This document shows positions 1,126 through 19,229 of a stretch of DNA of 64,000 nucleotides, piece after piece. Each line of letters starts with the position of its first letter. Position 1 is the first letter of the stretch. The notes under the pieces are model-generated. The model made no database searches. It was given only the letters and a program-made list of their open reading frames with translations, and was not told where the DNA came from. The DNA is taken from NCBI GenBank assembly GCA_000004985.1, contig GG738870.1; one strand, given 5' to 3'. Source of the DNA: Naegleria gruberi (taxonomy: Eukaryota). The position numbers and the translations under genes were made by a program.

Positions 1126-2019
1126 ATGAAAATTTTGAATAGATATGAGGCTTGGTGGCCTGTTAGAATAGTTTTGGATGAAAACTATTCGACGCCACAG
1201 TTGTTTAAGAAGCAGATAGGAAATTCTGATAAGGATGAAATACGAGTGGTGAAGGAATGTATTGTAAGAATGCAAAATGAGCAAATTCATGAGAAGGATG
1301 AGAATGGATGGTTATTAGATATCAAGCGAAACATGACGAAATCAAGAATTCACATATATGAACAAATATTGAATGGATTTACCAATATTAATCAAAAGCA
1401 AAGGACAACCGAACTAATTAAGAAATTGAATTTGTGGGAAAATAGAGATTTTGCCTCATTATTTGTTGTTAAAAGGGATTTTACTGATCTGCCTTTTAAA
1501 TGGCAGCAAGAAAAGGAAATTGCACTGATAGCTATTCGAAGGGAGCCTAGTACATTCCAATTATTATCAAGAGAATTAAGAATGGACAAGGAAGTTATCA
1601 TGACAGCTGTCAAATTAAATGGAGATTTGCTGAGATATGTATGTGCAACGATTGAAAGAGAAATGGTTTTTACAGCCTTCTCTGCACTAATACCAATCAA
1701 ATATTGTGGTTTATATTGGATTATTGGTAAAATGGCTGATGATAGGGATATTGTAATGGCAGCTGTCAAATCTGATGGTCAAGCTCTTAAGAATGCTTAT
1801 GAATATCAAAATGACAGAGAAATTGTAACAACAGCTGTGCAACATAATGGCTGTGCTATTCAATATGCTTCATTTGAATTGCAATTAGATACTGAGATAG
1901 TGCTGACAGCTGTCAAGCAAAATCCTGATGCTTATTTCCTTGCAACATTTGAATGTCAGACAGATCCTGAAATAATGGAAGCTGCTGGTATAACAGAAGA
2001 TATGGGAATTCTATTTTAA
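1126..2019 (+). CDS. DUF4116-like repeat protein.
   Basis: ATG at 1126 in an A-rich context. Tandem ~35-aa repeats of the form (E/D)(I/V)V(L/M)TAVK(Q/L)NG.AL(K/Q)YAS.EL..D.EIV, typical of the DUF4116 family. TAA stop. Confidence 0.6.
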   Translation: MKILNRYEAWWPVRIVLDENYSTPQLFKKQIGNSDKDEIRVVKECIVRMQNEQIHEKDENGWLLDIKRNMTKSRIHIYEQILNGFTNINQKQRTTELIKKLNLWENRDFASLFVVKRDFTDLPFKWQQEKEIALIAIRREPSTFQLLSRELRMDKEVIMTAVKLNGDLLRYVCATIEREMVFTAFSALIPIKYCGLYWIIGKMADDRDIVMAAVKSDGQALKNAYEYQNDREIVTTAVQHNGCAIQYASFELQLDTEIVLTAVKQNPDAYFLATFECQTDPEIMEAAGITEDMGILF

Positions 2020-2286
2020 CAAATTTCAAAATAAAATCTTTGAAATTCATAGAAAATTAAGATTTTATTCAAAATAATAGTAATCAAATTTAATGGTTGC
2101 GTGAAACAAATGGATTCACCTTGCAATTGAAAATATTCATGTTTGGAATTGCGAGAAGCATGTCGTCCTAAGTTCTAATAAATATTCGATTTTAAATTCG
2201 AATCCGAAAAAGGAATTTCTTGTCGTATAACTAGTTTGCATGATATGAGTTTGTTAGCAATTCACCAATTTAAAAAACCGAACCAC

Positions 2287-3710
2287 ATGAAACTCTATAT
2301 CTTCTTATTATTGACATTCCTGTCAGCTGTTCTTGTCAATAATCTTCCAATTAAAAGAAGAAACAAAGACTTAGAAAAATCATTCAATATTTTTCAATTT
2401 GGCAATCCAATCCAACCCTCTACCAAACATCCAATCCACAATATCAAAATTAACAAAGTTTCAAACCTTCAAATGTCACCAATAATTCTTGTTGGTGGAT
2501 TGGGTGGCTCCTCACTCATGTCCCAACGAAATCACAGCACCAACGAGCCACACTGGTGGTGTCAAAGAACCACTGATCCATTTCAGATTTGGTTATCCCT
2601 TCAGGAAATGATCCCCTATCTCTCAGAAGATTGTTTTGTGAACGACATGTCAGTGGAATTAAAAAATGGAATTCTTGGACAGAAAGATAGAAATGTTAGG
2701 ATTTTTGGAAAGGATATTGGTGGTATGGAAGGTTTAAATTCGATTATTGCAGAGTTTCCAAGTAAATGGTATTATATGAAGCCACTGGCTGACTATTTAG
2801 TTTCGAATGGAAGTTACGAAATTGGAAAGAGTTTGAGAGGGTTTACTTATGACTGGAGAGTGGGTGTCAGAGAGAGGGCAAATGATAGTTTGTCACTCGG
2901 AGGGGATTACTTCAAACTACAAAAATTGGTGGAAGAAACTTTTAAATTGAATGGAAGAAAAGTTTCCTTATTAGGGCATTCTATGGGAGGACCTTTCTTA
3001 CAATATTTTCTAGCTAATTTTGTGAGTCAAGATTGGAAAGATAGATATATTTACAAGTATATTCCTGTGGCTGGTCCATTTGATGGAACATCATTTTCTT
3101 TGGTAAGTAATTCAATTAACTTTTATTCGAAACATTTCAGATTCTTTATGTGACTGGAACTAATTGGCAATTTCCAGGATTCAAACCAGAAAATGCAAAG
3201 AAATTACTTAGACAATATCCTTCCATTCTATTCATGACTCCAACCCAATTTCCATACAAGTATCCATTCTTTTCTTATAAAGGAAATGTGAGCTATCATG
3301 TTGACCTTTCGGATATTGAGAAATTCTTGACAGATGCACAAGTTTCCAATGGAGTTGCACTCTACCATCACGAATACTCTCAATATAAGCACAATAGATT
3401 AAATGCACCTAACGTGACCACTCATTGCATGTATGGTTATGGAACTCCAACAGCCACACGTGTCAGATATACTGGAAACAAGGAATTGAAAGATTTAAAT
3501 TACATGGACGTGTTACATAACACCACTGTTGTGAATAGTGAAGATGGAGATGGAACTGTTCCAATATATTCTTTGGAATTATGTGATCAATTTGCCAAAA
3601 GTCAAAAAAAACCAGTTCATGTTCATCGATTTGCAAATGAAACTCACTCAGATATTATTAATTCAGAACAGTTCCAAAAAATATTACTGGAAATTCTCTC
3701 ATATGATTAA
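2287..3710 (+). CDS. LCAT/LPLA2-family phospholipase (lecithin:cholesterol acyltransferase-like) with signal peptide. Two exons: 2287..3102 and 3141..3710.
   Basis: Signal-peptide-like N-terminus MKLYIFLLLTFLSAVLV. An alternative in-frame ATG lies at 2245. Lipase pentapeptide GHSMGG. Intron 3103..3140 (gtaagtaatt...catttcag) joins ...GTSFSL to ILYVTGTNWQFPGFKP. This junction aligns with the intronless paralogue at 17841..19229 (SPILHMTGDTYG). Confidence 0.8.
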
Positions 3711-13925: not shown

Positions 13926-14830
13926 TCAATCCTTCACATGTCCAATGGCATGTTTATTTTGTGAAATGGCAATATGAACAGTCTTGTTGATAAATCTGTC
14001 AGCAAGTCTTCTCAAGACAAGTCCATTTATAGAGACAGCAACCTTTACCATATCTTCACTGATACGGTTGGCATGTTCGATGAGGAATGGATTCTTCTTG
14101 ATAATAGGGGTCATAAGTTCAATGTCAGATCTGTGGAATATTGAAGCATAACGAATGGAATTCCCACATTGATTAGTGGCAACGGTAACGAGTTCCTTAT
14201 CATAGGTATATTCTGTTGGAAGATATTCCAACAATCTACATATCTCTTGACAGACTTTCTAATAAATTCATCATCGTTTCTCAAATATTCGTCCCAAAAT
14301 TCGAATGATTTACCATTACTTGTCTTGAGTGATATCTTGACAATTTCCAAATCCTTCTTCAATTCTGATGAAGCAAACCTGACAGCCAATCCACAATTCT
14401 TGACACCATCCAAAACAATTTGCTTGCTGTTTTGCAAATCAGCAGAGGCAAACTTTAAGGCACGATCATTTACTGAAACTGCCTTTTGAACAATTTCATA
14501 ATCACTTCTGAATGGAATCGCCAAATATCCCAAGGCGAGATCATTAGTGGTAATTAGAGTGAAAATTCTCTGTCTTGTTTGAGGGTTTCACTGGCATGCT
14601 TTAGGGAATTTCAATTCTTCTTGAAACAATCGATTACAAACCTGGAATCACTCTTCAAATCATCAGAGGCGAGTTTGAGGATAGTAGCTGATTCTTACGA
14701 GCAAGTGAGAGTTTGACATCTGAATCTTGTTGTAATTCCTTTGAAAGATAAACGAATGATTTTCCACTTTGATTTAGAGTTACCAAAGCAACTTAGCAAT
14801 GAGAAATGATCCAAAACTTGTCAAGATTGC
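13926..14830 (-). pseudogene. Second DUF4116-repeat gene. The frame is disrupted, so it is a candidate pseudogene or an unresolved multi-exon gene.
   Basis: Two overlapping ORFs in different frames (13926..14234 and 14111..14533) and further DUF4116-like fragments with stops up to about 14830 (e.g. ALKFASADLQNSKQIVLDGVKNCGLAVRFASSELKKDLEIV; LKLASDDLKSD). No clean splice sites restore one frame. Confidence 0.4.
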
Positions 14831-15326: not shown

Positions 15327-16778
15327 ATGAAAAGAAAAGAAACAACTTCTCCCTCACAACACGATGACGTACAAGAATGCAAAAAGGCAAAACATGAATC
15401 AACCACGACAAGTAGTACTTCCCATTTCTTCTCTACAATTTCCAATGATGAATTCCTATGTATTTTATACTCTTTAGAATCGGAGAGTATTCTCTCACTC
15501 TCCCGAACATGTAAATCGATGCAACATTTGATCAAGAATAATGTACTTGAATATTTGTGTAAATATTCCATCATCAATCAAGATGGTACGAACCACATTG
15601 ATAATGATACAACAATAGCTATTGATCATGTTAGGGAGGATGAGAAAATTCTGAAAGCATTGAAGAATAGAGAATTATTTAGAGTTGATGATAAGAATTA
15701 TGAATCTGTTTTGGATATTATTGAGGATATTTGTGATAGGAATGGGACTTTGAGTGATTTTACTCATCATTTGAAATTTGATAGAAAGGTTACTTTTGAA
15801 GAAGTATTTGACTTGATGGATTGTCGTCTAATGAAGCATTCCTATAGAAAGGAATATTCAAATAATCAAGAGGATATTCTTGGAGATTTCTATCATGAGG
15901 AAATGATTGTCAATTGCGTTTTAATTGAAGAATTACTCTATGAATTCGATCCCTACTCATTTGATGAGGAAGAATGGATGAGAGAACCAATTGAAGATAA
16001 TTCTAAAAGTTTTCAATTGGTGAAAATTATTGGAATACCTATTGGGTATACGCTTAAAGAGTTAACACTTGCTAATGTTTCATTTAATGAATTGTTTTTA
16101 ATTCTTTCTAAATGTAATCAATTAGAAAGTTTGATAATCTCTGATTTTTATTTATCAATGAGACGTTACAAGGAAGAAGATGAAGAAGAATCAACCAAAA
16201 TTACAGAGGAATATGAAGAACATTGTTTTTTCATTCCTACTTTGAAATCAATGAAGAAATTTGAATTGAGATACTCTCGCTTACTTCCACGTGAATCAAC
16301 ATTATTGAACATCTTGAAATGTTGCCCAAATTTAGAGACTGTTTACTTTTGCTTCCTTACCCGATTAGATAAGTATTTATTACAAAAGATTCCACAATAT
16401 TGTACCAATCTTACAAATGTAACTTTCCTGTCAGATAGTGGAAGCACTCCTTTAGAAAGCATTATAACAGATTCTCAAGTATATGAATTCATGAAATCTC
16501 AACCAAAATTGAAATATTTGAAAATCAGTCCTTGCATCAACATTAATGGGTCAATTTTTGCAAATATTGGAGAATTTCAAAAGTTGGAATATTTAGAACT
16601 TGATGTACATGCCTATAATTCGTATAGAATTCCTCAAATTGAAGAGATTGTATTTGGTGGAGGTGAAGGAATCTTACCTAATCTCAAACATCTCAATGTA
16701 GGGAAGTTAGAAATTGATGAAGATGCCTTGTACAAATTTGCACCAAATTTAATTTCTTTCGAGTGTGATGAGTGGTAA
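15327..16778 (+). CDS. F-box/LRR-like protein.
   Basis: ATG at 15327. N-terminal FLCILYSLESESILSLSRTCKSMQHLI (F-box-like). Downstream leucine-rich segments (LKELTLANVSFNELFLILSKCNQLESLII). Confidence 0.5.
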   Translation: MKRKETTSPSQHDDVQECKKAKHESTTTSSTSHFFSTISNDEFLCILYSLESESILSLSRTCKSMQHLIKNNVLEYLCKYSIINQDGTNHIDNDTTIAIDHVREDEKILKALKNRELFRVDDKNYESVLDIIEDICDRNGTLSDFTHHLKFDRKVTFEEVFDLMDCRLMKHSYRKEYSNNQEDILGDFYHEEMIVNCVLIEELLYEFDPYSFDEEEWMREPIEDNSKSFQLVKIIGIPIGYTLKELTLANVSFNELFLILSKCNQLESLIISDFYLSMRRYKEEDEEESTKITEEYEEHCFFIPTLKSMKKFELRYSRLLPRESTLLNILKCCPNLETVYFCFLTRLDKYLLQKIPQYCTNLTNVTFLSDSGSTPLESIITDSQVYEFMKSQPKLKYLKISPCININGSIFANIGEFQKLEYLELDVHAYNSYRIPQIEEIVFGGGEGILPNLKHLNVGKLEIDEDALYKFAPNLISFECDEW

Positions 16779-17202
16779 TTGTCTATCTTGCCTTATAATA
16801 TTTTGTAAAGTATTTTCCTCTTCCGAAAAAACAACTTAATAATATTTAATTTCTCTTCCTTGTCCACCAATTGGTGGTTATTATTAATATATTCAATTTT
16901 AATTTTCTACATCATAATGTTCACATATTAAAATGCAAACTCCAACTTGTTCACTTCATATCCATCAATGCACTTTTATCAATGAACATTGCCTTGTTCA
17001 TTCTTCTTTCTCAATTTTCAATATCGTGAAAAGCTAGCTGCAACTTTGAAAAGTCTCGTTTTTGACTGAATGATGATAAACAAGCTCGGAAAAGTGTTGT
17101 CGAGGTCACCACAGAGAGATAAAATTTACAACGAAAATTTTTTAAATAAATATTAAAATTTATTTCCTTGCTGAAAAAAAAATTCAACAACAAATCATCA
17201 CA

Positions 17203-17682
17203 ATGGATATTAACGAATTCAAGAGAAAGTACTCCAACGAAAGCGACACCAAGGCTGTTATGGAATGGGCTTTTGAAAAGATTGCTGCTGCTCCAGAAAC
17301 TTATTCTTTCTGGTTGGCTGAATACAATCAACCTGATCTTTTGACTGGTCCTGCTTGGATGCAAAACAACTTGGTTGAAGGTTACTTCAGAAACATTGAA
17401 GGTTTGAAGAAGAATTGTTTCGCTTCTGCTTTGGTCCTCACTAACGACGAAGGTGCTCAAAGAATCTCCATGGTCTGGTTGGTCCCAACCCAAACTGTTC
17501 CAAAGGAATTCACTTCTGATGATATTGCTGGATCCAAGATTGGTGATGGTTTCAACTTGACTCAATTGAAGCCTGCTGAATCTGAAGAAGATAAGACCAC
17601 GATTATCAACTACATGATCTGGAATGAAGATAAGGGTGCTTTCGGCGGTTACACTTATGCTTCTGGTAAGATCTTCAAGTAA
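17203..17682 (+). CDS. Stand-alone EF1-gamma C-terminal-domain protein (159 aa) with no GST domain.
   Basis: INEFKRKYSNESDT...NCFASALVL...MIWNEDKGAFGGYTYASGKIFK aligns along the whole EF1G C-terminal domain, including the terminal GKIFK. Codon usage is strongly biased (ggt/gct/ttc/aag), as in highly expressed genes. The 420 nt upstream are non-coding. Confidence 0.8.
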   Translation: MDINEFKRKYSNESDTKAVMEWAFEKIAAAPETYSFWLAEYNQPDLLTGPAWMQNNLVEGYFRNIEGLKKNCFASALVLTNDEGAQRISMVWLVPTQTVPKEFTSDDIAGSKIGDGFNLTQLKPAESEEDKTTIINYMIWNEDKGAFGGYTYASGKIFK

Positions 17683-17840
17683 ACTATTTGAATTTTTCTT
17701 CCAACATGATTGTATTATTATCAAATTGTTCTTTCTTATTATTAATATTTAAAAAACAATACAATTACCCTCTGGCTTACTTATCGGAATGAACAATTTA
17801 AAATTAATTATTCACAATTTTAATATCATCATATTAATAC

Positions 17841-19229
17841 TTATAATATTTCCAACAATTTGATAAAGAAACGTTCCTCCATCATGATACCAATGTGATG
17901 AGCACCCGGTAACACTGTAGTTTCAATCTTCTCCTCCTGCTTAAATTGTGAACACATCTCCAAGCAATAATCAGGCAAAGTATCATCACCACGTTCCCAT
18001 CTCGAAGCTTGAATATCTGCAGAGGTCAACTCTTCCATTCTCTTTGGACCAGTATAGGAATATTGAGTTGGAGTCCAATTATTGGAACCATAGATACATT
18101 GTGTTGGAACACCTGGAGCTGCAAATTTAATATCGAGAATGGATTGAGATTCTTGCATGAATAATTCCCAACCATTGGTCATTGAAGCATCTTTCATGAA
18201 TTGACCATAACTTTCAACTGTTGCAAAATAGTTGGCTTTCTGATTGGTTTGATTATTGGTATATTGGAACATTGGATAATTGGTGAATGGGGTTTTGAGT
18301 GGATACATGTATGAAGGACTGCCAAATGTACGAACCATCTTTTTGAATTGTTCTCTACTAAGGAAGAATAATCCATAAGTATCGCCTGTCATGTGAAGAA
18401 TTGGACTTTGAATTTCACCATCGTATGATCCTGAAACACTAATGAATTGTTTGATGAATTTTTGTTTCCATTCCTTAGAAACATGAGTGGCAAGAAAGAG
18501 TTGAGTGAATGGAGCTCCCAAGCTATGTCCAAGTAAGCTCACTTGAGTTCCATTGTTGAGATAGTAGGTATCTTCAACGAGTTTTTGAAGAATATCATAA
18601 TCTCCTCCAGTATTATTCATTCTTTTTGATTTCCACTCAATTGGACCAGTTCTCCAATCATAGGTCATTGCTCTCAATGTTTTTCCTCCAATATATCCAC
18701 CATGTTTAATTAAATAGGAAGTTAACAATTCCATATAGACTGCCTGATTAATAAATTCATAATTAGTAATGTAATTCACTCCACTCAGACCACCAACATC
18801 CTTTCCAGTGATGGAAACACCTGCATCTAATGGATGTAATTTTCTCGGTTGTCCCCTCAAATCCAATGTCAAATCATGCACTGTACATTCCTCTGTTACA
18901 TGTGGAATTAATTCATTCAAATTGGCCCACACTTGAAATGGCTCACTCGTTGTACTTTCACACCAAAAGTGTGGTTCCTTTGCATTGGTTCTTTGTGCAT
19001 TGAGAGCTGATCCACCAAATCCTCCCAATAGAATCAATGGACTCAATGTTGTGGAATTGTTTGTTGAGATGGCTCTTCTTGGATTTGGTGGTCCCTTGAA
19101 GGTCTTCCAGATTTCACTTGCTCGTTGACGAGTAATGACTGGTATTGGCAAAGAGTGAACTGTTAAAGATAAACAAATAATGACAACAAAGAGTGCCGTA
19201 AACAATTGTGCAATCAGATTGCTAGACAT
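17841..19229 (-). CDS. LCAT/LPLA2-family phospholipase, a paralogue of the 2287..3710 gene. Single exon, signal peptide.
   Basis: ATG at 19229. Hydrophobic N-terminus. GHSLGAP lipase motif. Colinear similarity to the other LCAT-like gene. Confidence 0.8.
   Translation of the reverse strand: MSSNLIAQLFTALFVVIICLSLTVHSLPIPVITRQRASEIWKTFKGPPNPRRAISTNNSTTLSPLILLGGFGGSALNAQRTNAKEPHFWCESTTSEPFQVWANLNELIPHVTEECTVHDLTLDLRGQPRKLHPLDAGVSITGKDVGGLSGVNYITNYEFINQAVYMELLTSYLIKHGGYIGGKTLRAMTYDWRTGPIEWKSKRMNNTGGDYDILQKLVEDTYYLNNGTQVSLLGHSLGAPFTQLFLATHVSKEWKQKFIKQFISVSGSYDGEIQSPILHMTGDTYGLFFLSREQFKKMVRTFGSPSYMYPLKTPFTNYPMFQYTNNQTNQKANYFATVESYGQFMKDASMTNGWELFMQESQSILDIKFAAPGVPTQCIYGSNNWTPTQYSYTGPKRMEELTSADIQASRWERGDDTLPDYCLEMCSQFKQEEKIETTVLPGAHHIGIMMEERFFIKLLEIL

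What the first reader, a model, noticed from the sequence alone, without database searches (positions are those of the whole stretch)
17203..17682. Stand-alone, apparently highly expressed EF1-gamma C-terminal domain without a GST domain
The 159-aa protein is a complete EF1G C-terminal domain (from EFKRKYSNE to the terminal GKIFK) but lacks the N-terminal GST-like domain that canonical eEF1B-gamma carries. There is no upstream coding sequence or intron within 420 nt. Its codon usage is strikingly optimised relative to neighbours (almost exclusively ggt, gct, ttc, aag, gaa, atc), which implies high expression. A truncated EF1-gamma module like this could act as a separate eEF1B-binding or regulatory factor.
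Basis: partly seen in the sequence, partly recalled or inferred. Interest (0 to 1): 0.5.

Follow-up and report, generated by a model that had tools for sequence, protein, structure and literature searches.

The report
Free-standing EF-1-gamma C-terminal domain gene
This Naegleria gruberi gene encodes only the C-terminal domain of translation elongation factor 1-gamma, without the usual GST-like half. It is a real, conserved gene with codon usage typical of high expression. Relatives occur in other heterolobosean amoebae, and similar free-standing copies occur in giant viruses, so it could help show what this poorly understood domain does on its own.

Summary
Window 17203-17682 (+) is N. gruberi NAEGRDRAFT_67954 (159 aa). 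It is a complete EF1G C-terminal fold with no GST domain, and no GST-like coding sequence lies within 64 kb. The gene has its own TATA-like upstream element and the strongest codon bias in the window.

Orthologues with the same start codon exist in N. fowleri and Willaertia magna. In both, the upstream neighbour is on the opposite strand, which excludes an upstream GST exon.

The protein belongs to a small family of free-standing EF1G domains of 143-188 aa. Members come from Naegleria, Willaertia, Acrasis, environmental eukaryotes and two giant-virus-like contigs. They share derived characters that 55 canonical eEF1Bgamma domains lack. Skoliomonas (Metamonada) and named giant viruses (Edafosvirus, Tupanvirus, Terrestrivirus) also carry stand-alone copies.

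The most likely role is an abundant, untethered accessory of the eEF1A/eEF1B cycle, but this is inferred.

I could not determine whether Naegleria also has a canonical GST+EF1G gene. That is the decisive open point.

Verdict: a new variant of a known kind, of moderate interest.

The parts
17203..17682 (+). Single-exon CDS of the 159-aa free-standing EF1G C-terminal-domain protein (N. gruberi NAEGRDRAFT_67954 / XP_002676701.1 / UniProt D2VGF1). The end coordinate includes the TAA stop.
   Evidence: ORF list. Pfam EF1G only, E = 4.7e-18. 100% identical to the N. gruberi database protein. Aligns to 1PBU residues 15-162. Fold match TM 0.82-0.84.
17143..17167 (+). TATA-like A/T element (TAAATAAATATTAAAATTTATTTCC). 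It is conserved in position and partly in sequence upstream of the N. fowleri and W. magna orthologues, and is a putative core promoter.
   Evidence: Three-species alignment of the 120 nt upstream of the ATG shows the conserved block AATAAA..TAAAA.TT.TT. A promoter function is inferred, not shown.
17170..17202 (+). A-rich 5' leader (gctgaaaaaaaaattcaacaacaaatcatcaca), probably transcribed and colinear with the genome. An in-frame TAA lies further upstream, at 17143-17145.
   Evidence: Database protein P0265 (source 'merc', ERR1712137_128214, 172 aa) equals the 159-aa protein preceded by AEKKIQQQIIT. That peptide is the conceptual translation of these 33 nt. An A-run of this kind recurs in all three species.
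16779..17202 (+). Upstream intergenic spacer of 424 nt between the stop of an F-box/LRR-like gene (15327-16778, +) and the EF1G start. It holds no GST-like coding sequence.
   Evidence: ORF list. Pfam on the upstream ORF. tblastn with GST halves: nothing better than E = 0.12.
17011..17724 (-). Antisense ORF of 237 aa (TTG start) that fully overlaps the gene. It is most likely not a gene. The sense strand uses no TTA, CTA or TCA codons, which removes stop codons from the opposite strand.
   Evidence: ORF list. Codon table showing TTA 0, CTA 0, TCA 0 in the sense gene.

Best explanation
The locus is a genuine, independently transcribed gene for a free-standing eEF1Bgamma C-terminal ('contact-lens') domain. 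It belongs to an old, vertically inherited heterolobosean family found in Naegleria, Willaertia and Acrasis. This family lost the GST-like scaffold half, kept the core residues of the domain, and then acquired its own derived characters. Copies of the same family sit in giant-virus-like genomes.

Proposed mechanism (inferred): the protein is an abundant soluble accessory of the translation-elongation machinery. It uses the conserved face of the EF1G fold on the same partner or partners as the C-terminal domain of canonical eEF1Bgamma, in the neighbourhood of the eEF1Balpha GEF domain and eEF1A. It would act in trans, by concentration, rather than being tethered through a GST domain.

Shown here: the gene's identity, completeness, autonomy, conservation and codon bias.

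Inferred: high expression, the partner or partners, and any effect on nucleotide exchange.
For: **A complete domain on its own.** Pfam finds EF1G only. The protein aligns over the full length of 1PBU. The fold match has TM 0.82-0.84 and rmsd 2.4-2.6 A over 159 columns.

**An autonomous gene.**
- There is an in-frame upstream stop, and a database peptide is colinear with the genomic leader.
- A TATA-like element is conserved upstream.
- In N. fowleri and W. magna the upstream neighbour is a Tctex-1 gene on the opposite strand, 505 and 274 nt away. Tim17 is nearby in all three species.
- No GST-like sequence was found in any of the loci.

**Under selection.**
- All three orthologues begin MDINEFKRKYSNESDTKAV, and amino-acid identity is 60-71%.
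- dN/dS is 0.10-0.40.
- Codon bias is the strongest in the window (Nc 28.8 against 34-47). It is repeated in N. fowleri (33.4 against 42-50). In W. magna the gene has the highest GC3 of its locus.
- Synonymous divergence between N. gruberi and N. fowleri is 0.40, against 0.57 for the neighbouring Tim17.

**A distinct family.**
- A profile of the stand-alone proteins retrieves only short, EF1G-only proteins: 12 hits of 143-188 aa, including Acrasis kona.
- These proteins cluster apart from 55 canonical domains. NJ bootstrap is 73% for all stand-alone copies and 96% for Acrasis plus the virus-like and environmental copies.
- Shared derived characters are FQR to FRx, G74A, G90M, loss of D113 and Y117, and a loop insertion.
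- Canonical core residues are kept: K7, Y10, N12, N56, L57, G60, F73, W140 and the C-terminal GKxFK.

**Link to translation.**
- The family is encoded in two syntenic contigs of 208 and 428 kb, 22% GC, without introns. Both also carry GIY-YIG, UvrD helicase and valyl-tRNA synthetase genes.
- Named Mimiviridae-type giant viruses have stand-alone EF1G-fold proteins.
- AlphaFold3 plus cross-linking models of the human complex place the gamma C-terminal domains against the GEF domains, with cross-links to eEF1A in the eEF1A-bound state (PMC12701074).
Against: - No expression, interaction or activity data exist for this protein.
- In human, the isolated gamma linker plus C-terminal domain does not bind eEF1Balpha or beta/delta stably (PMC9458455). 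Any contact made in trans would therefore have to be weak, or different.
- The family has lost residues that are nearly invariant in canonical domains: the Arg of the FQR motif (100%) and D113 (98%). This could mean a changed partner.
- The function of the canonical C-terminal domain is itself unknown.
- The viral nature of the two contigs rests on gene content and composition only. No hallmark gene was seen, the Mimivirus AAAATTGA motif is not enriched, and nothing related was found in IMG/VR.
Confidence: 0.45

Rival explanations
1. Sole eEF1Bgamma. Heterolobosea have no canonical GST+EF1G gene, so this 159-aa protein is the only eEF1Bgamma orthologue. The GST scaffold was lost in the heterolobosean stem and the remaining domain then evolved faster. 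This is a sub-case of the best explanation, but it makes a specific genomic prediction.
For: - The same architecture, with shared derived characters, is found in Vahlkampfiidae and Acrasidae.
- The codon bias is of the kind expected for a core translation factor.
- The Acrasis copy is the protein that its annotators named elongation factor 1-gamma.
- No heterolobosean canonical protein appeared among the 30 named hits of the exhaustive search, or among the 87 hits of the canonical-profile search.
Against: - The searches were not exhaustive for Naegleria. One search scored only the 8000 candidates sharing most words, and these were dominated by kinetoplastids. 114 of the 144 hits remain unnamed.
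- Canonical eEF1Bgamma exists in kinetoplastids, which are also Discoba, and in Giardia and Ergobibamus. The ancestor therefore had it, and N. gruberi generally keeps ancestral genes (own knowledge).
Confidence: 0.45
2. Extra paralogue. Naegleria keeps a canonical eEF1Bgamma elsewhere in the genome. This gene is an additional, specialised copy of the C-terminal domain, with a regulatory function or one outside the eEF1B complex.
For: - The family is more divergent from canonical domains (mean 32% identity) than canonical domains are from each other (mean 43%), and it has lost canonical invariant residues.
- Stand-alone copies can coexist with a full-length gene. Fonticula alba has a 166-aa copy two genes away from its 416-aa gene.
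- Faunusvirus has a full-length copy, while other giant viruses have short ones.
Against: - No canonical Naegleria gene was seen, although the test was weak.
- Very strong codon bias is unusual for an accessory regulator.
Confidence: 0.5
3. Gene fission. The GST-like half is encoded by a separate gene elsewhere, and the two products reassemble non-covalently into a split eEF1Bgamma.
For: No direct evidence. It is compatible with a complete domain that starts exactly at the first helix, and with the flexible, disordered linker between the two domains in the human protein (PMC9458455).
Against: - No GST-like gene lies in the 64-kb window or next to any orthologue.
- In canonical eEF1Bgamma the two domains are joined only by the disordered linker (residues 215-280 in human, PMC9458455), so it is unclear what would hold separate halves together.
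- The only GST-only hits to the canonical profile look like bacterial GSTs.
Confidence: 0.1
4. Artefact or relic. The ORF is a truncated gene model, a pseudogene fragment of a canonical gene, or an exon whose GST exons lie far upstream.
For: The Pfam match begins at profile position 14, so the first 13 profile positions (PLDxLPxSxF) are missing.
Against: - The start codon and length are the same in three genera, and dN/dS is below 0.4.
- Codon bias is extreme.
- There is an upstream in-frame stop and a colinear leader peptide.
- A divergently oriented neighbour lies 274-505 nt upstream in two species.
- The model folds completely from residue 3.
- The 'MD[IL]N' start corresponds to an internal Met present in some canonical proteins, which makes it a natural new start site.
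Confidence: 0.02
5. Viral origin. The Naegleria gene was acquired from a giant virus rather than the reverse.
For: Stand-alone EF1G domains are widespread in giant viruses and in the two virus-like contigs. Giant viruses that infect Naegleria are known (own knowledge).
Against: - The virus-like copies group with the Acrasis-type proteins (56-61% identity, bootstrap 81%), not with Naegleria (33%).
- The Naegleria, Willaertia and Acrasis copies share derived characters and have host-like introns and codon usage. Old vertical inheritance, with transfer from host to virus, is the simpler reading.
Confidence: 0.1

Closest known systems
Canonical eEF1Bgamma (EF-1-gamma; human EEF1G, yeast Tef3/Tef4): GST_N + GST_C + linker + EF1G C-terminal domain, about 400-440 aa
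   Same: The C-terminal domain is homologous over its whole length: Pfam EF1G, alignment to 1PBU, TM 0.82-0.84. It keeps core residues K7, Y10, N12, M53, N56, L57, G60, K70, F73, I88, G96, W140 and the terminal GKxFK.
   Different: - It has no GST-like domain and no linker, so the only mapped binding site for eEF1Balpha/delta is missing.
- Identity to canonical domains is only about 30%.
- It has lost the canonical FQR Arg, Y43, G90, R95, D113 and Y117.
- It has a 2-4 residue loop insertion at positions 108-111.
Free-standing EF1G-domain proteins of other Heterolobosea and environmental relatives: N. fowleri FDP41_012664, Willaertia magna ABK040_001614, Acrasis kona 'elongation factor 1-gamma' (167 aa), P0177, P0178, P0008, P0040
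   Same: They share the architecture, the length class and the derived characters. The Naegleria and Willaertia copies are syntenic orthologues, with Tim17 nearby.
   Different: The Acrasis-type copies are only 33-39% identical to the Naegleria type. They carry a 15-20 residue polar N-terminal tail and have a one-residue deletion after YSN.
Stand-alone 'EF-1-gamma C-terminal domain-containing proteins' of giant viruses: Edafosvirus A0A3G4ZVE4 (174 aa), Tupanvirus soda lake A0A6N1NJ50 (161 aa), Terrestrivirus A0A3G4ZNV3 (188 aa). Also the virus-like metagenome copies P0004 and P0175.
   Same: The fold and the size are the same (TMq 0.74-0.77 for Edafosvirus and Tupanvirus, 0.41 for Terrestrivirus; Foldseek E 1e-9 to 1e-3). 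P0004 and P0175 share the heterolobosean derived characters.
   Different: The named viral proteins are only 14-20% identical in the structural alignment and were not retrieved by the sequence profile, so their relationship to this family is unresolved. The Tupanvirus genome paper does not list this protein among its translation factors (PMC5829246).
Skoliomonas (Metamonada) 145-aa EF1G-only proteins (GEM-RC1 GEMRC1_011624, TZLM3-RCL RCL1_006017)
   Same: They are stand-alone and begin with the same MD[IL]NxFKRxYSNE start.
   Different: They keep the canonical QR, G90 and DFESY motifs and lack the loop insertion. Their introns are at other positions. They are probably an independent truncation at a conserved internal Met.

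Membership tests
Pfam PF00647 / EF1G C-terminal domain fold | A significant match to the EF1G profile above the gathering score. | tested here: met
   65.5 bits against a cut-off of 23.3, E = 4.7e-18.
Pfam PF00647 / EF1G C-terminal domain fold | The complete 'contact-lens' alpha/beta fold of the roughly 160-residue domain (1PBU). | tested here: met
   phmmer alignment, query 3-159 to 1PBU 15-162. AF2 model against 1pbu, TM 0.82/0.81; against 9a9s_A, TMq 0.84.
Canonical eEF1Bgamma subunit | An N-terminal GST-like domain (GST_N + GST_C), which binds eEF1Balpha/delta. | tested here: not met
   No GST Pfam hit in the protein. The ORF is bounded by an upstream in-frame stop. No GST-like coding sequence in the window or in the orthologous loci.
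Canonical eEF1Bgamma subunit | A charged, disordered linker between the two domains. | tested here: not met
   The protein starts 2 residues before the first helix of the domain.
Canonical eEF1Bgamma subunit | Near-invariant residues of the C-terminal domain (FKRxYSN, NLxxG, FQR, FGS, IxGxW, DxExY, GKxFK). | tested here: inconclusive
   FKRxYSN, NLxxG, F73, W140 and GKxFK are kept. The FQR Arg, G74, G90, D113 and Y117 are lost.
Canonical eEF1Bgamma subunit | Physical membership of the eEF1B/eEF1H complex. | not testable with these tools
   This needs AP-MS or co-fractionation in Naegleria. The human C-terminal half alone does not bind the GEF subunits (PMC9458455).
Heterolobosean-type free-standing EF1G family (defined here) | EF1G-only architecture of 143-188 aa. 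| tested here: met
   All 12 proteins retrieved by the family profile carry PF00647 only.
Heterolobosean-type free-standing EF1G family (defined here) | Shared derived characters relative to 55 canonical domains: R at position 63 and no R at 64, A74, M90, a loop insertion at 108-111, and loss of D113/Y117. | tested here: met
   Column statistics and alignment. Clade support is 73-96% in NJ bootstraps. No maximum-likelihood tree was made.
Giant-virus EF-1-gamma C-terminal domain-containing proteins | Encoded in a genome of the Nucleocytoviricota. | tested here: not met
   The window is a N. gruberi nuclear scaffold. It is 100% identical to XP_002676701.1 on a 418-kb scaffold, its orthologues contain introns, and its neighbours are eukaryotic genes.

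The most novel reading that the evidence does not exclude
Heterolobosea have dispensed with the GST scaffold altogether. In this reading the free C-terminal domain is their only eEF1Bgamma, it is made at the level of a core translation factor, and it carries the domain's ancestral and still unknown function without being tethered to eEF1Balpha. The same free module has been picked up repeatedly by giant viruses that build their own translation toolkits. Together this would mean that the C-terminal domain, not the GST domain, is the functionally indispensable part of eEF1Bgamma, and it would give a natural minimal system in which to find out what the domain does.
Probability: 0.35. Interest if true: 0.65.

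Novelty: new variant of a known kind. Interest (0 to 1): 0.45.

Why it matters
eEF1Bgamma is found in nearly all eukaryotes. Its GST half is understood as the assembly scaffold of the eEF1B complex, and recently also as a glutathione sensor. The role of its conserved C-terminal domain has remained unknown since its structure was solved in 2003.

A naturally free-standing copy that is conserved, has strongly biased codon usage, and recurs in giant viruses argues that the domain has a function of its own. It also offers a simple object for pull-downs, nucleotide-exchange assays and structure prediction with eEF1A or eEF1Balpha.

If Heterolobosea turn out to lack the canonical gene, this would be a clear case of re-wiring of a core translation factor complex.

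I found no paper that discusses this gene or the architecture. The databases carry it only as 'predicted protein' or as an automatic domain label.

Tried and rejected
**1. Looking for a canonical Naegleria eEF1Bgamma. Not resolved.**
- The exhaustive HMMER search gave 144 hits. I could name only 30 of them, and none was heterolobosean.
- A profile of 38 canonical proteins was limited to the 8000 candidates sharing most words and returned mostly kinetoplastids.
- I ranked hits by AT-rich amino-acid composition to pick candidates. This found only metazoan or unknown sequences. One such contig, L012, is a canonical gene from an unknown AT-rich organism without Naegleria-like codon usage.

**2. 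GST-only hits to the canonical profile.** P0260-P0262 were considered as possible 'split' N-terminal halves and rejected, because they look like Ala-rich bacterial GSTs.

**3. Literature.** No paper combines Naegleria with EF-1-gamma in a relevant way. The paper behind PDB 9a9s was not found. The sequence copy of the PDB does not hold that entry, so I could not read its subunit composition.

**4. Proving that contigs L003 and L006 are viral. Not achieved.**
- Nothing related was found in IMG/VR for the EF1G, an ORFan or the ValRS.
- The Mimivirus early-promoter motif AAAATTGA is not enriched: 5 found against 6.7 expected.

**5. The AlphaFold-database fold library was not available.**

**6. Shared N-terminus of Naegleria and Skoliomonas.** I first read the shared start as a sign of common origin or gene transfer. 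The alignment shows that the Met is an internal residue of some canonical proteins, and that Skoliomonas keeps canonical motifs. Convergent truncation is therefore more likely.

**7. Tctex-1.** This gene flanks the orthologues but is absent from the N. gruberi window.
Full report
**1. What is at the coordinates**

The window is from Naegleria gruberi. The 159-aa product of the ORF 17203..17682 (+) is 100% identical to 'predicted protein [Naegleria gruberi]' (XP_002676701.1, EFC43957.1, UniProt D2VGF1, NAEGRDRAFT_67954), which lies on a 418-kb scaffold.

Pfam finds one domain only, EF1G (PF00647): E = 4.7e-18, 65.5 bits against a gathering score of 23.3. It covers residues 1-95 and profile positions 14-104 of 107. 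The Pfam model covers only the first two thirds of the structural domain. [quoted passage not shown]

An AlphaFold2 model built on six family members has mean pLDDT 85.7. It matches the C-terminal domain of full-length human eEF1G in 'Human elongation factor 1 complex' (9a9s_A; TMq 0.84, rmsd 2.4 A) and 1PBU (TM 0.82/0.81). Nothing else matches below E = 0.001. The domain is therefore complete and starts two residues before its first helix. Only the extended PLDxLPxSxF segment that follows the linker in canonical proteins is missing.

**2. No GST part, and a transcription unit of its own**

- The reading frame is closed by a TAA 20 codons upstream of the ATG.
- The 424-nt spacer back to the preceding gene holds no meaningful ORF. 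That gene is an F-box/LRR-like protein at 15327-16778 on the same strand.
- tblastn with the N-terminal GST halves of ten canonical eEF1Bgamma proteins finds nothing better than E = 0.12 in the 64-kb window or in the orthologous loci of five other genomes.
- Pfam scans of 24 neighbouring ORFs show no GST domain.
- One member of the protein's 90% cluster (P0265, source 'merc', ERR1712137_128214) is the same 159 residues preceded by AEKKIQQQIIT. That peptide is exactly the conceptual translation of the 33 nt upstream of the ATG. From my own knowledge, MERC is a protein-level assembly of marine metatranscriptome reads. If so, this is RNA evidence for an unspliced leader.
- The 120 nt upstream of the ATG in N. 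gruberi, N. fowleri and Willaertia magna share a TATA-like block (AATAAA..TAAAA.TT.TT) about 35-60 nt before the ATG (17143-17167 in this window), followed by an A-run.

**3. Orthologues**

N. fowleri (FDP41_012664, 157 aa, 71% identity) and W. magna (ABK040_001614, 156 aa, 61%) have the same architecture and the same first 19 residues.

Their genes have two introns and one intron respectively. The first intron sits after codon 7 in both, while N. gruberi has none. In both species the upstream neighbour is a Tctex-1 gene on the opposite strand, 505 and 274 nt away. That leaves no room for an upstream exon. A Tim17 gene is close by in all three species.

dN/dS is 0.40 (N. gruberi against N. fowleri), 0.16 and 0.10.

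**4. Codon usage**

The effective number of codons is 28.8, against 34.4-46.8 for the other 33 ORFs of at least 150 aa in the window. GC3 is the highest, at 0.447. Counts are GCT 14/14, AAG 13/13, GAA 14/14, GGT 9/11, TTC 8/9, TTG 8/10, AAC 8/11 and TAC 5/7.

The N. fowleri orthologue is likewise the most biased gene of its locus (Nc 33.4 against 42-50; GC3 0.48 against 0.30-0.38). In the very AT-rich W. magna, the gene has the highest GC3 of its locus.

Synonymous divergence between the two Naegleria species is 0.40 for this gene and 0.57 for the neighbouring Tim17. This is one comparator only.

All of this fits selection on synonymous sites, as seen in highly expressed genes. Expression itself was not measured. 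One side effect is a 237-aa antisense ORF (17011-17724), which I regard as an artefact of the missing TTA, CTA and TCA codons.

**5. A family of free-standing EF1G domains**

An exhaustive HMMER search of 1.84 billion representative proteins gave 144 hits. The best hits outside the vahlkampfiids were short proteins. A profile of six such proteins retrieved 12 proteins, all of 143-188 aa and all with EF1G as their only Pfam domain:

- Naegleria (two species) and Willaertia.
- Acrasis kona (167 aa, annotated 'elongation factor 1-gamma').
- Two Skoliomonas strains. These are listed by NCBI as Eukaryota sp. GEM-RC1 and TZLM3-RCL, and are identified as skoliomonad metamonads in PMC11316075.
- Four environmental sequences.
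- P0004 and P0175.

In a neighbour-joining tree with 55 canonical C-terminal domains, the stand-alone proteins form one group (bootstrap 73%). The subgroups are Naegleria plus Willaertia (100%), Skoliomonas (99%), and Acrasis plus environmental plus P0004/P0175 plus P0008/P0040 (96%).

Column statistics and the alignment show that the family keeps many canonical near-invariant residues: K7, Y10, N12, M53, N56, L57, G60, K70, F73, I88, G96, W140 and GKxFK. The heterolobosean, virus-like and P0008/P0040 members also share changes not seen in canonical domains:

- FQR becomes FRx. The Arg is 100% conserved in canonical proteins.
- G74 becomes A.
- G90 becomes M.
- D113 (98% conserved) and Y117 are lost.
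- There is a 2-4 residue insertion at positions 108-111.

The Skoliomonas proteins keep QR, G90 and DFESY, and lack the insertion. The shared 'MD[IL]N' start corresponds to an internal Met that some canonical proteins also have (for example Rhodelphis and Galdieria). I therefore read the Skoliomonas copies as an independent truncation, and the heterolobosean ones as a single old family.

**6. Giant viruses**

P0004 and P0175 (87% identical to each other, 56-61% to the Acrasis type) lie on two syntenic metagenome contigs of 208 and 428 kb. These contigs are 22% GC, densely packed and intronless, and are mostly ORFans. They also carry a GIY-YIG nuclease, a UvrD-type helicase, a small Ras-like GTPase, a DnaJ-like protein and, about 6 kb from the EF1G gene, a valyl-tRNA synthetase that passes the NCBIfam equivalog cut-offs.

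This gene content is typical of Mimiviridae-like giant viruses, but I saw no hallmark gene. The AAAATTGA motif is not enriched, and IMG/VR holds nothing related.

Independently, the model matches predicted structures of viral proteins:

| Virus | Length | TMq or E | Note |
|---|---|---|---|
| Edafosvirus | 174 aa | TMq 0.77 | 'EF-1-gamma C-terminal domain-containing protein' |
| Tupanvirus soda lake | 161 aa | TMq 0.74 | 'EF-1-gamma C-terminal domain-containing protein' |
| Terrestrivirus | 188 aa | E = 1.4e-3 | 'EF-1-gamma C-terminal domain-containing protein' |
| Harvfovirus | 149 aa | TMq 0.66 | ORFan |
| CroV | 136 aa | TMq 0.54 | Uncharacterized protein |
| Faunusvirus | 415 aa | TMq 0.72 | Full-length 'Elongation factor 1-gamma' |

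The Tupanvirus genome paper does not list this protein among its translation factors (PMC5829246). The free domain is thus a module that giant viruses with enlarged translation gene sets carry repeatedly.

**7. How it may work**

In canonical eEF1Bgamma the GST-like domain is the assembly platform. Human gamma(228-437), the linker plus C-terminal domain, binds neither eEF1Balpha nor eEF1Bbeta/delta in gel filtration. Hydrogen-exchange protection of the C-terminal domain does not change on complex formation (PMC9458455).

[quoted passage not shown] In the eEF1A-bound state they report cross-links between eEF1A and eEF1G (PMC12701074). The C-terminal domain is also part of the deposited human EF1 complex structure, 9a9s.

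My best reading is that the free domain works on the same neighbourhood, the eEF1Balpha GEF domain and eEF1A. It would be present at high concentration instead of being tethered. The lost canonical residues may reflect adaptation to that mode, or a partly changed partner. This step is inference.

**8. What remains open**

I could not establish whether Naegleria also has a canonical GST+EF1G gene, because none of the tools searches a Naegleria proteome directly. The indirect attempts were negative but not exhaustive.

Canonical proteins exist in kinetoplastids, Giardia and Ergobibamus, so the ancestors had them. I put 'sole eEF1Bgamma' at about 0.45 and 'extra paralogue' at about 0.5. A split gene, an artefact and a viral origin are all unlikely.

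**9. Verdict**

The gene is an already catalogued but uncharacterised protein. I found no literature on it or on the architecture.

It is best described as a new variant of a known kind: a conserved, probably highly expressed, GST-less form of eEF1Bgamma that defines a small family shared by Heterolobosea and giant-virus-like genomes. Interest is moderate. It rises if the canonical gene proves to be absent.

Noticed in passing
L003 (ENA ERZ4903137 k141_545989, 208 kb) and L006 (JGI Ga0209960_1000059, 428 kb); EF1G genes at L003 8001-8486 and L006 10001-10525: Two syntenic metagenome contigs, 22% GC and intronless, carry a stand-alone EF1G domain 56-61% identical to the Acrasis type. They also carry a GIY-YIG nuclease, a UvrD helicase, a Ras-like GTPase and many ORFans. 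They are probably giant viruses of a heterolobosean-like host, but no hallmark gene was seen and nothing related is in IMG/VR.
   Followed up: partly
L006 16792-19452 (+); L003 14042-16486 (+, cut): A valyl-tRNA synthetase (NCBIfam equivalog, 824 bits against a cut-off of 704) lies about 6 kb from the viral-like EF1G gene. In animals, ValRS is the one synthetase that rides on the eEF1B complex. This may be coincidence.
   Followed up: partly
BFVD entries A0A3G4ZVE4, A0A6N1NJ50, A0A3G4ZNV3, A0A3G5A5A9, E3T4C8, A0A3G4ZYP3: Named giant viruses (Edafosvirus, Tupanvirus soda lake, Terrestrivirus) have stand-alone EF1G-fold proteins. By fold alone, so do ORFans of Harvfovirus and CroV. Faunusvirus has a full-length 415-aa EF-1-gamma. 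The Tupanvirus paper does not list this protein among its translation factors.
   Followed up: partly
L001 6810-7495 (-), L002 7187-7726 (-), L010 8506-8831 (-): A Tctex-1 dynein light-chain gene is the divergent upstream neighbour of the EF1G gene in N. fowleri and W. magna. One also lies 2 kb from the stand-alone EF1G gene of Skoliomonas GEM-RC1, a metamonad. It is absent from the N. gruberi window. The cross-phylum coincidence is unexplained.
   Followed up: partly
window 17011-17724 (-): A 237-aa antisense ORF, longer than the gene it overlaps. It is almost certainly a by-product of the sense strand's avoidance of TTA, CTA and TCA codons.
   Followed up: yes
window 17841-19229 (-); 2245-3153 and 3234-3710 (+): Two LCAT-family (PF02450) genes lie in the window. 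The second is split into two adjacent ORFs that match the N- and C-terminal parts of the profile, so it probably has an intron or a frameshift.
   Followed up: no
window 1126-2019 (+) and 14111-14533 (-): Two genes are made of DUF4116 repeats (PF13475; five and three repeats).
   Followed up: no
P0265 (source 'merc', ERR1712137_128214): A sequence 100% identical to the N. gruberi protein, plus its translated 5' leader, sits in what appears to be a marine metatranscriptome catalogue. For a freshwater and soil amoeba strain, this suggests contamination or a very close marine relative.
   Followed up: no
P0120 / P0264 (Fonticula alba H696_05111 and H696_05113): Fonticula alba has a 166-aa EF1G-only protein that is almost identical to the C-terminal domain of its 416-aa canonical EF-1-gamma, two genes away. 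This is a recent partial duplication or an assembly or annotation artefact, and it shows another route to stand-alone copies.
   Followed up: no
P0007 (1852 aa) and P0148 (3374 aa), EukProt: These kinetoplastid-like 'proteins' consist of several complete GST+EF1G units in tandem. They probably come from a tandem gene array read through as one gene model.
   Followed up: no
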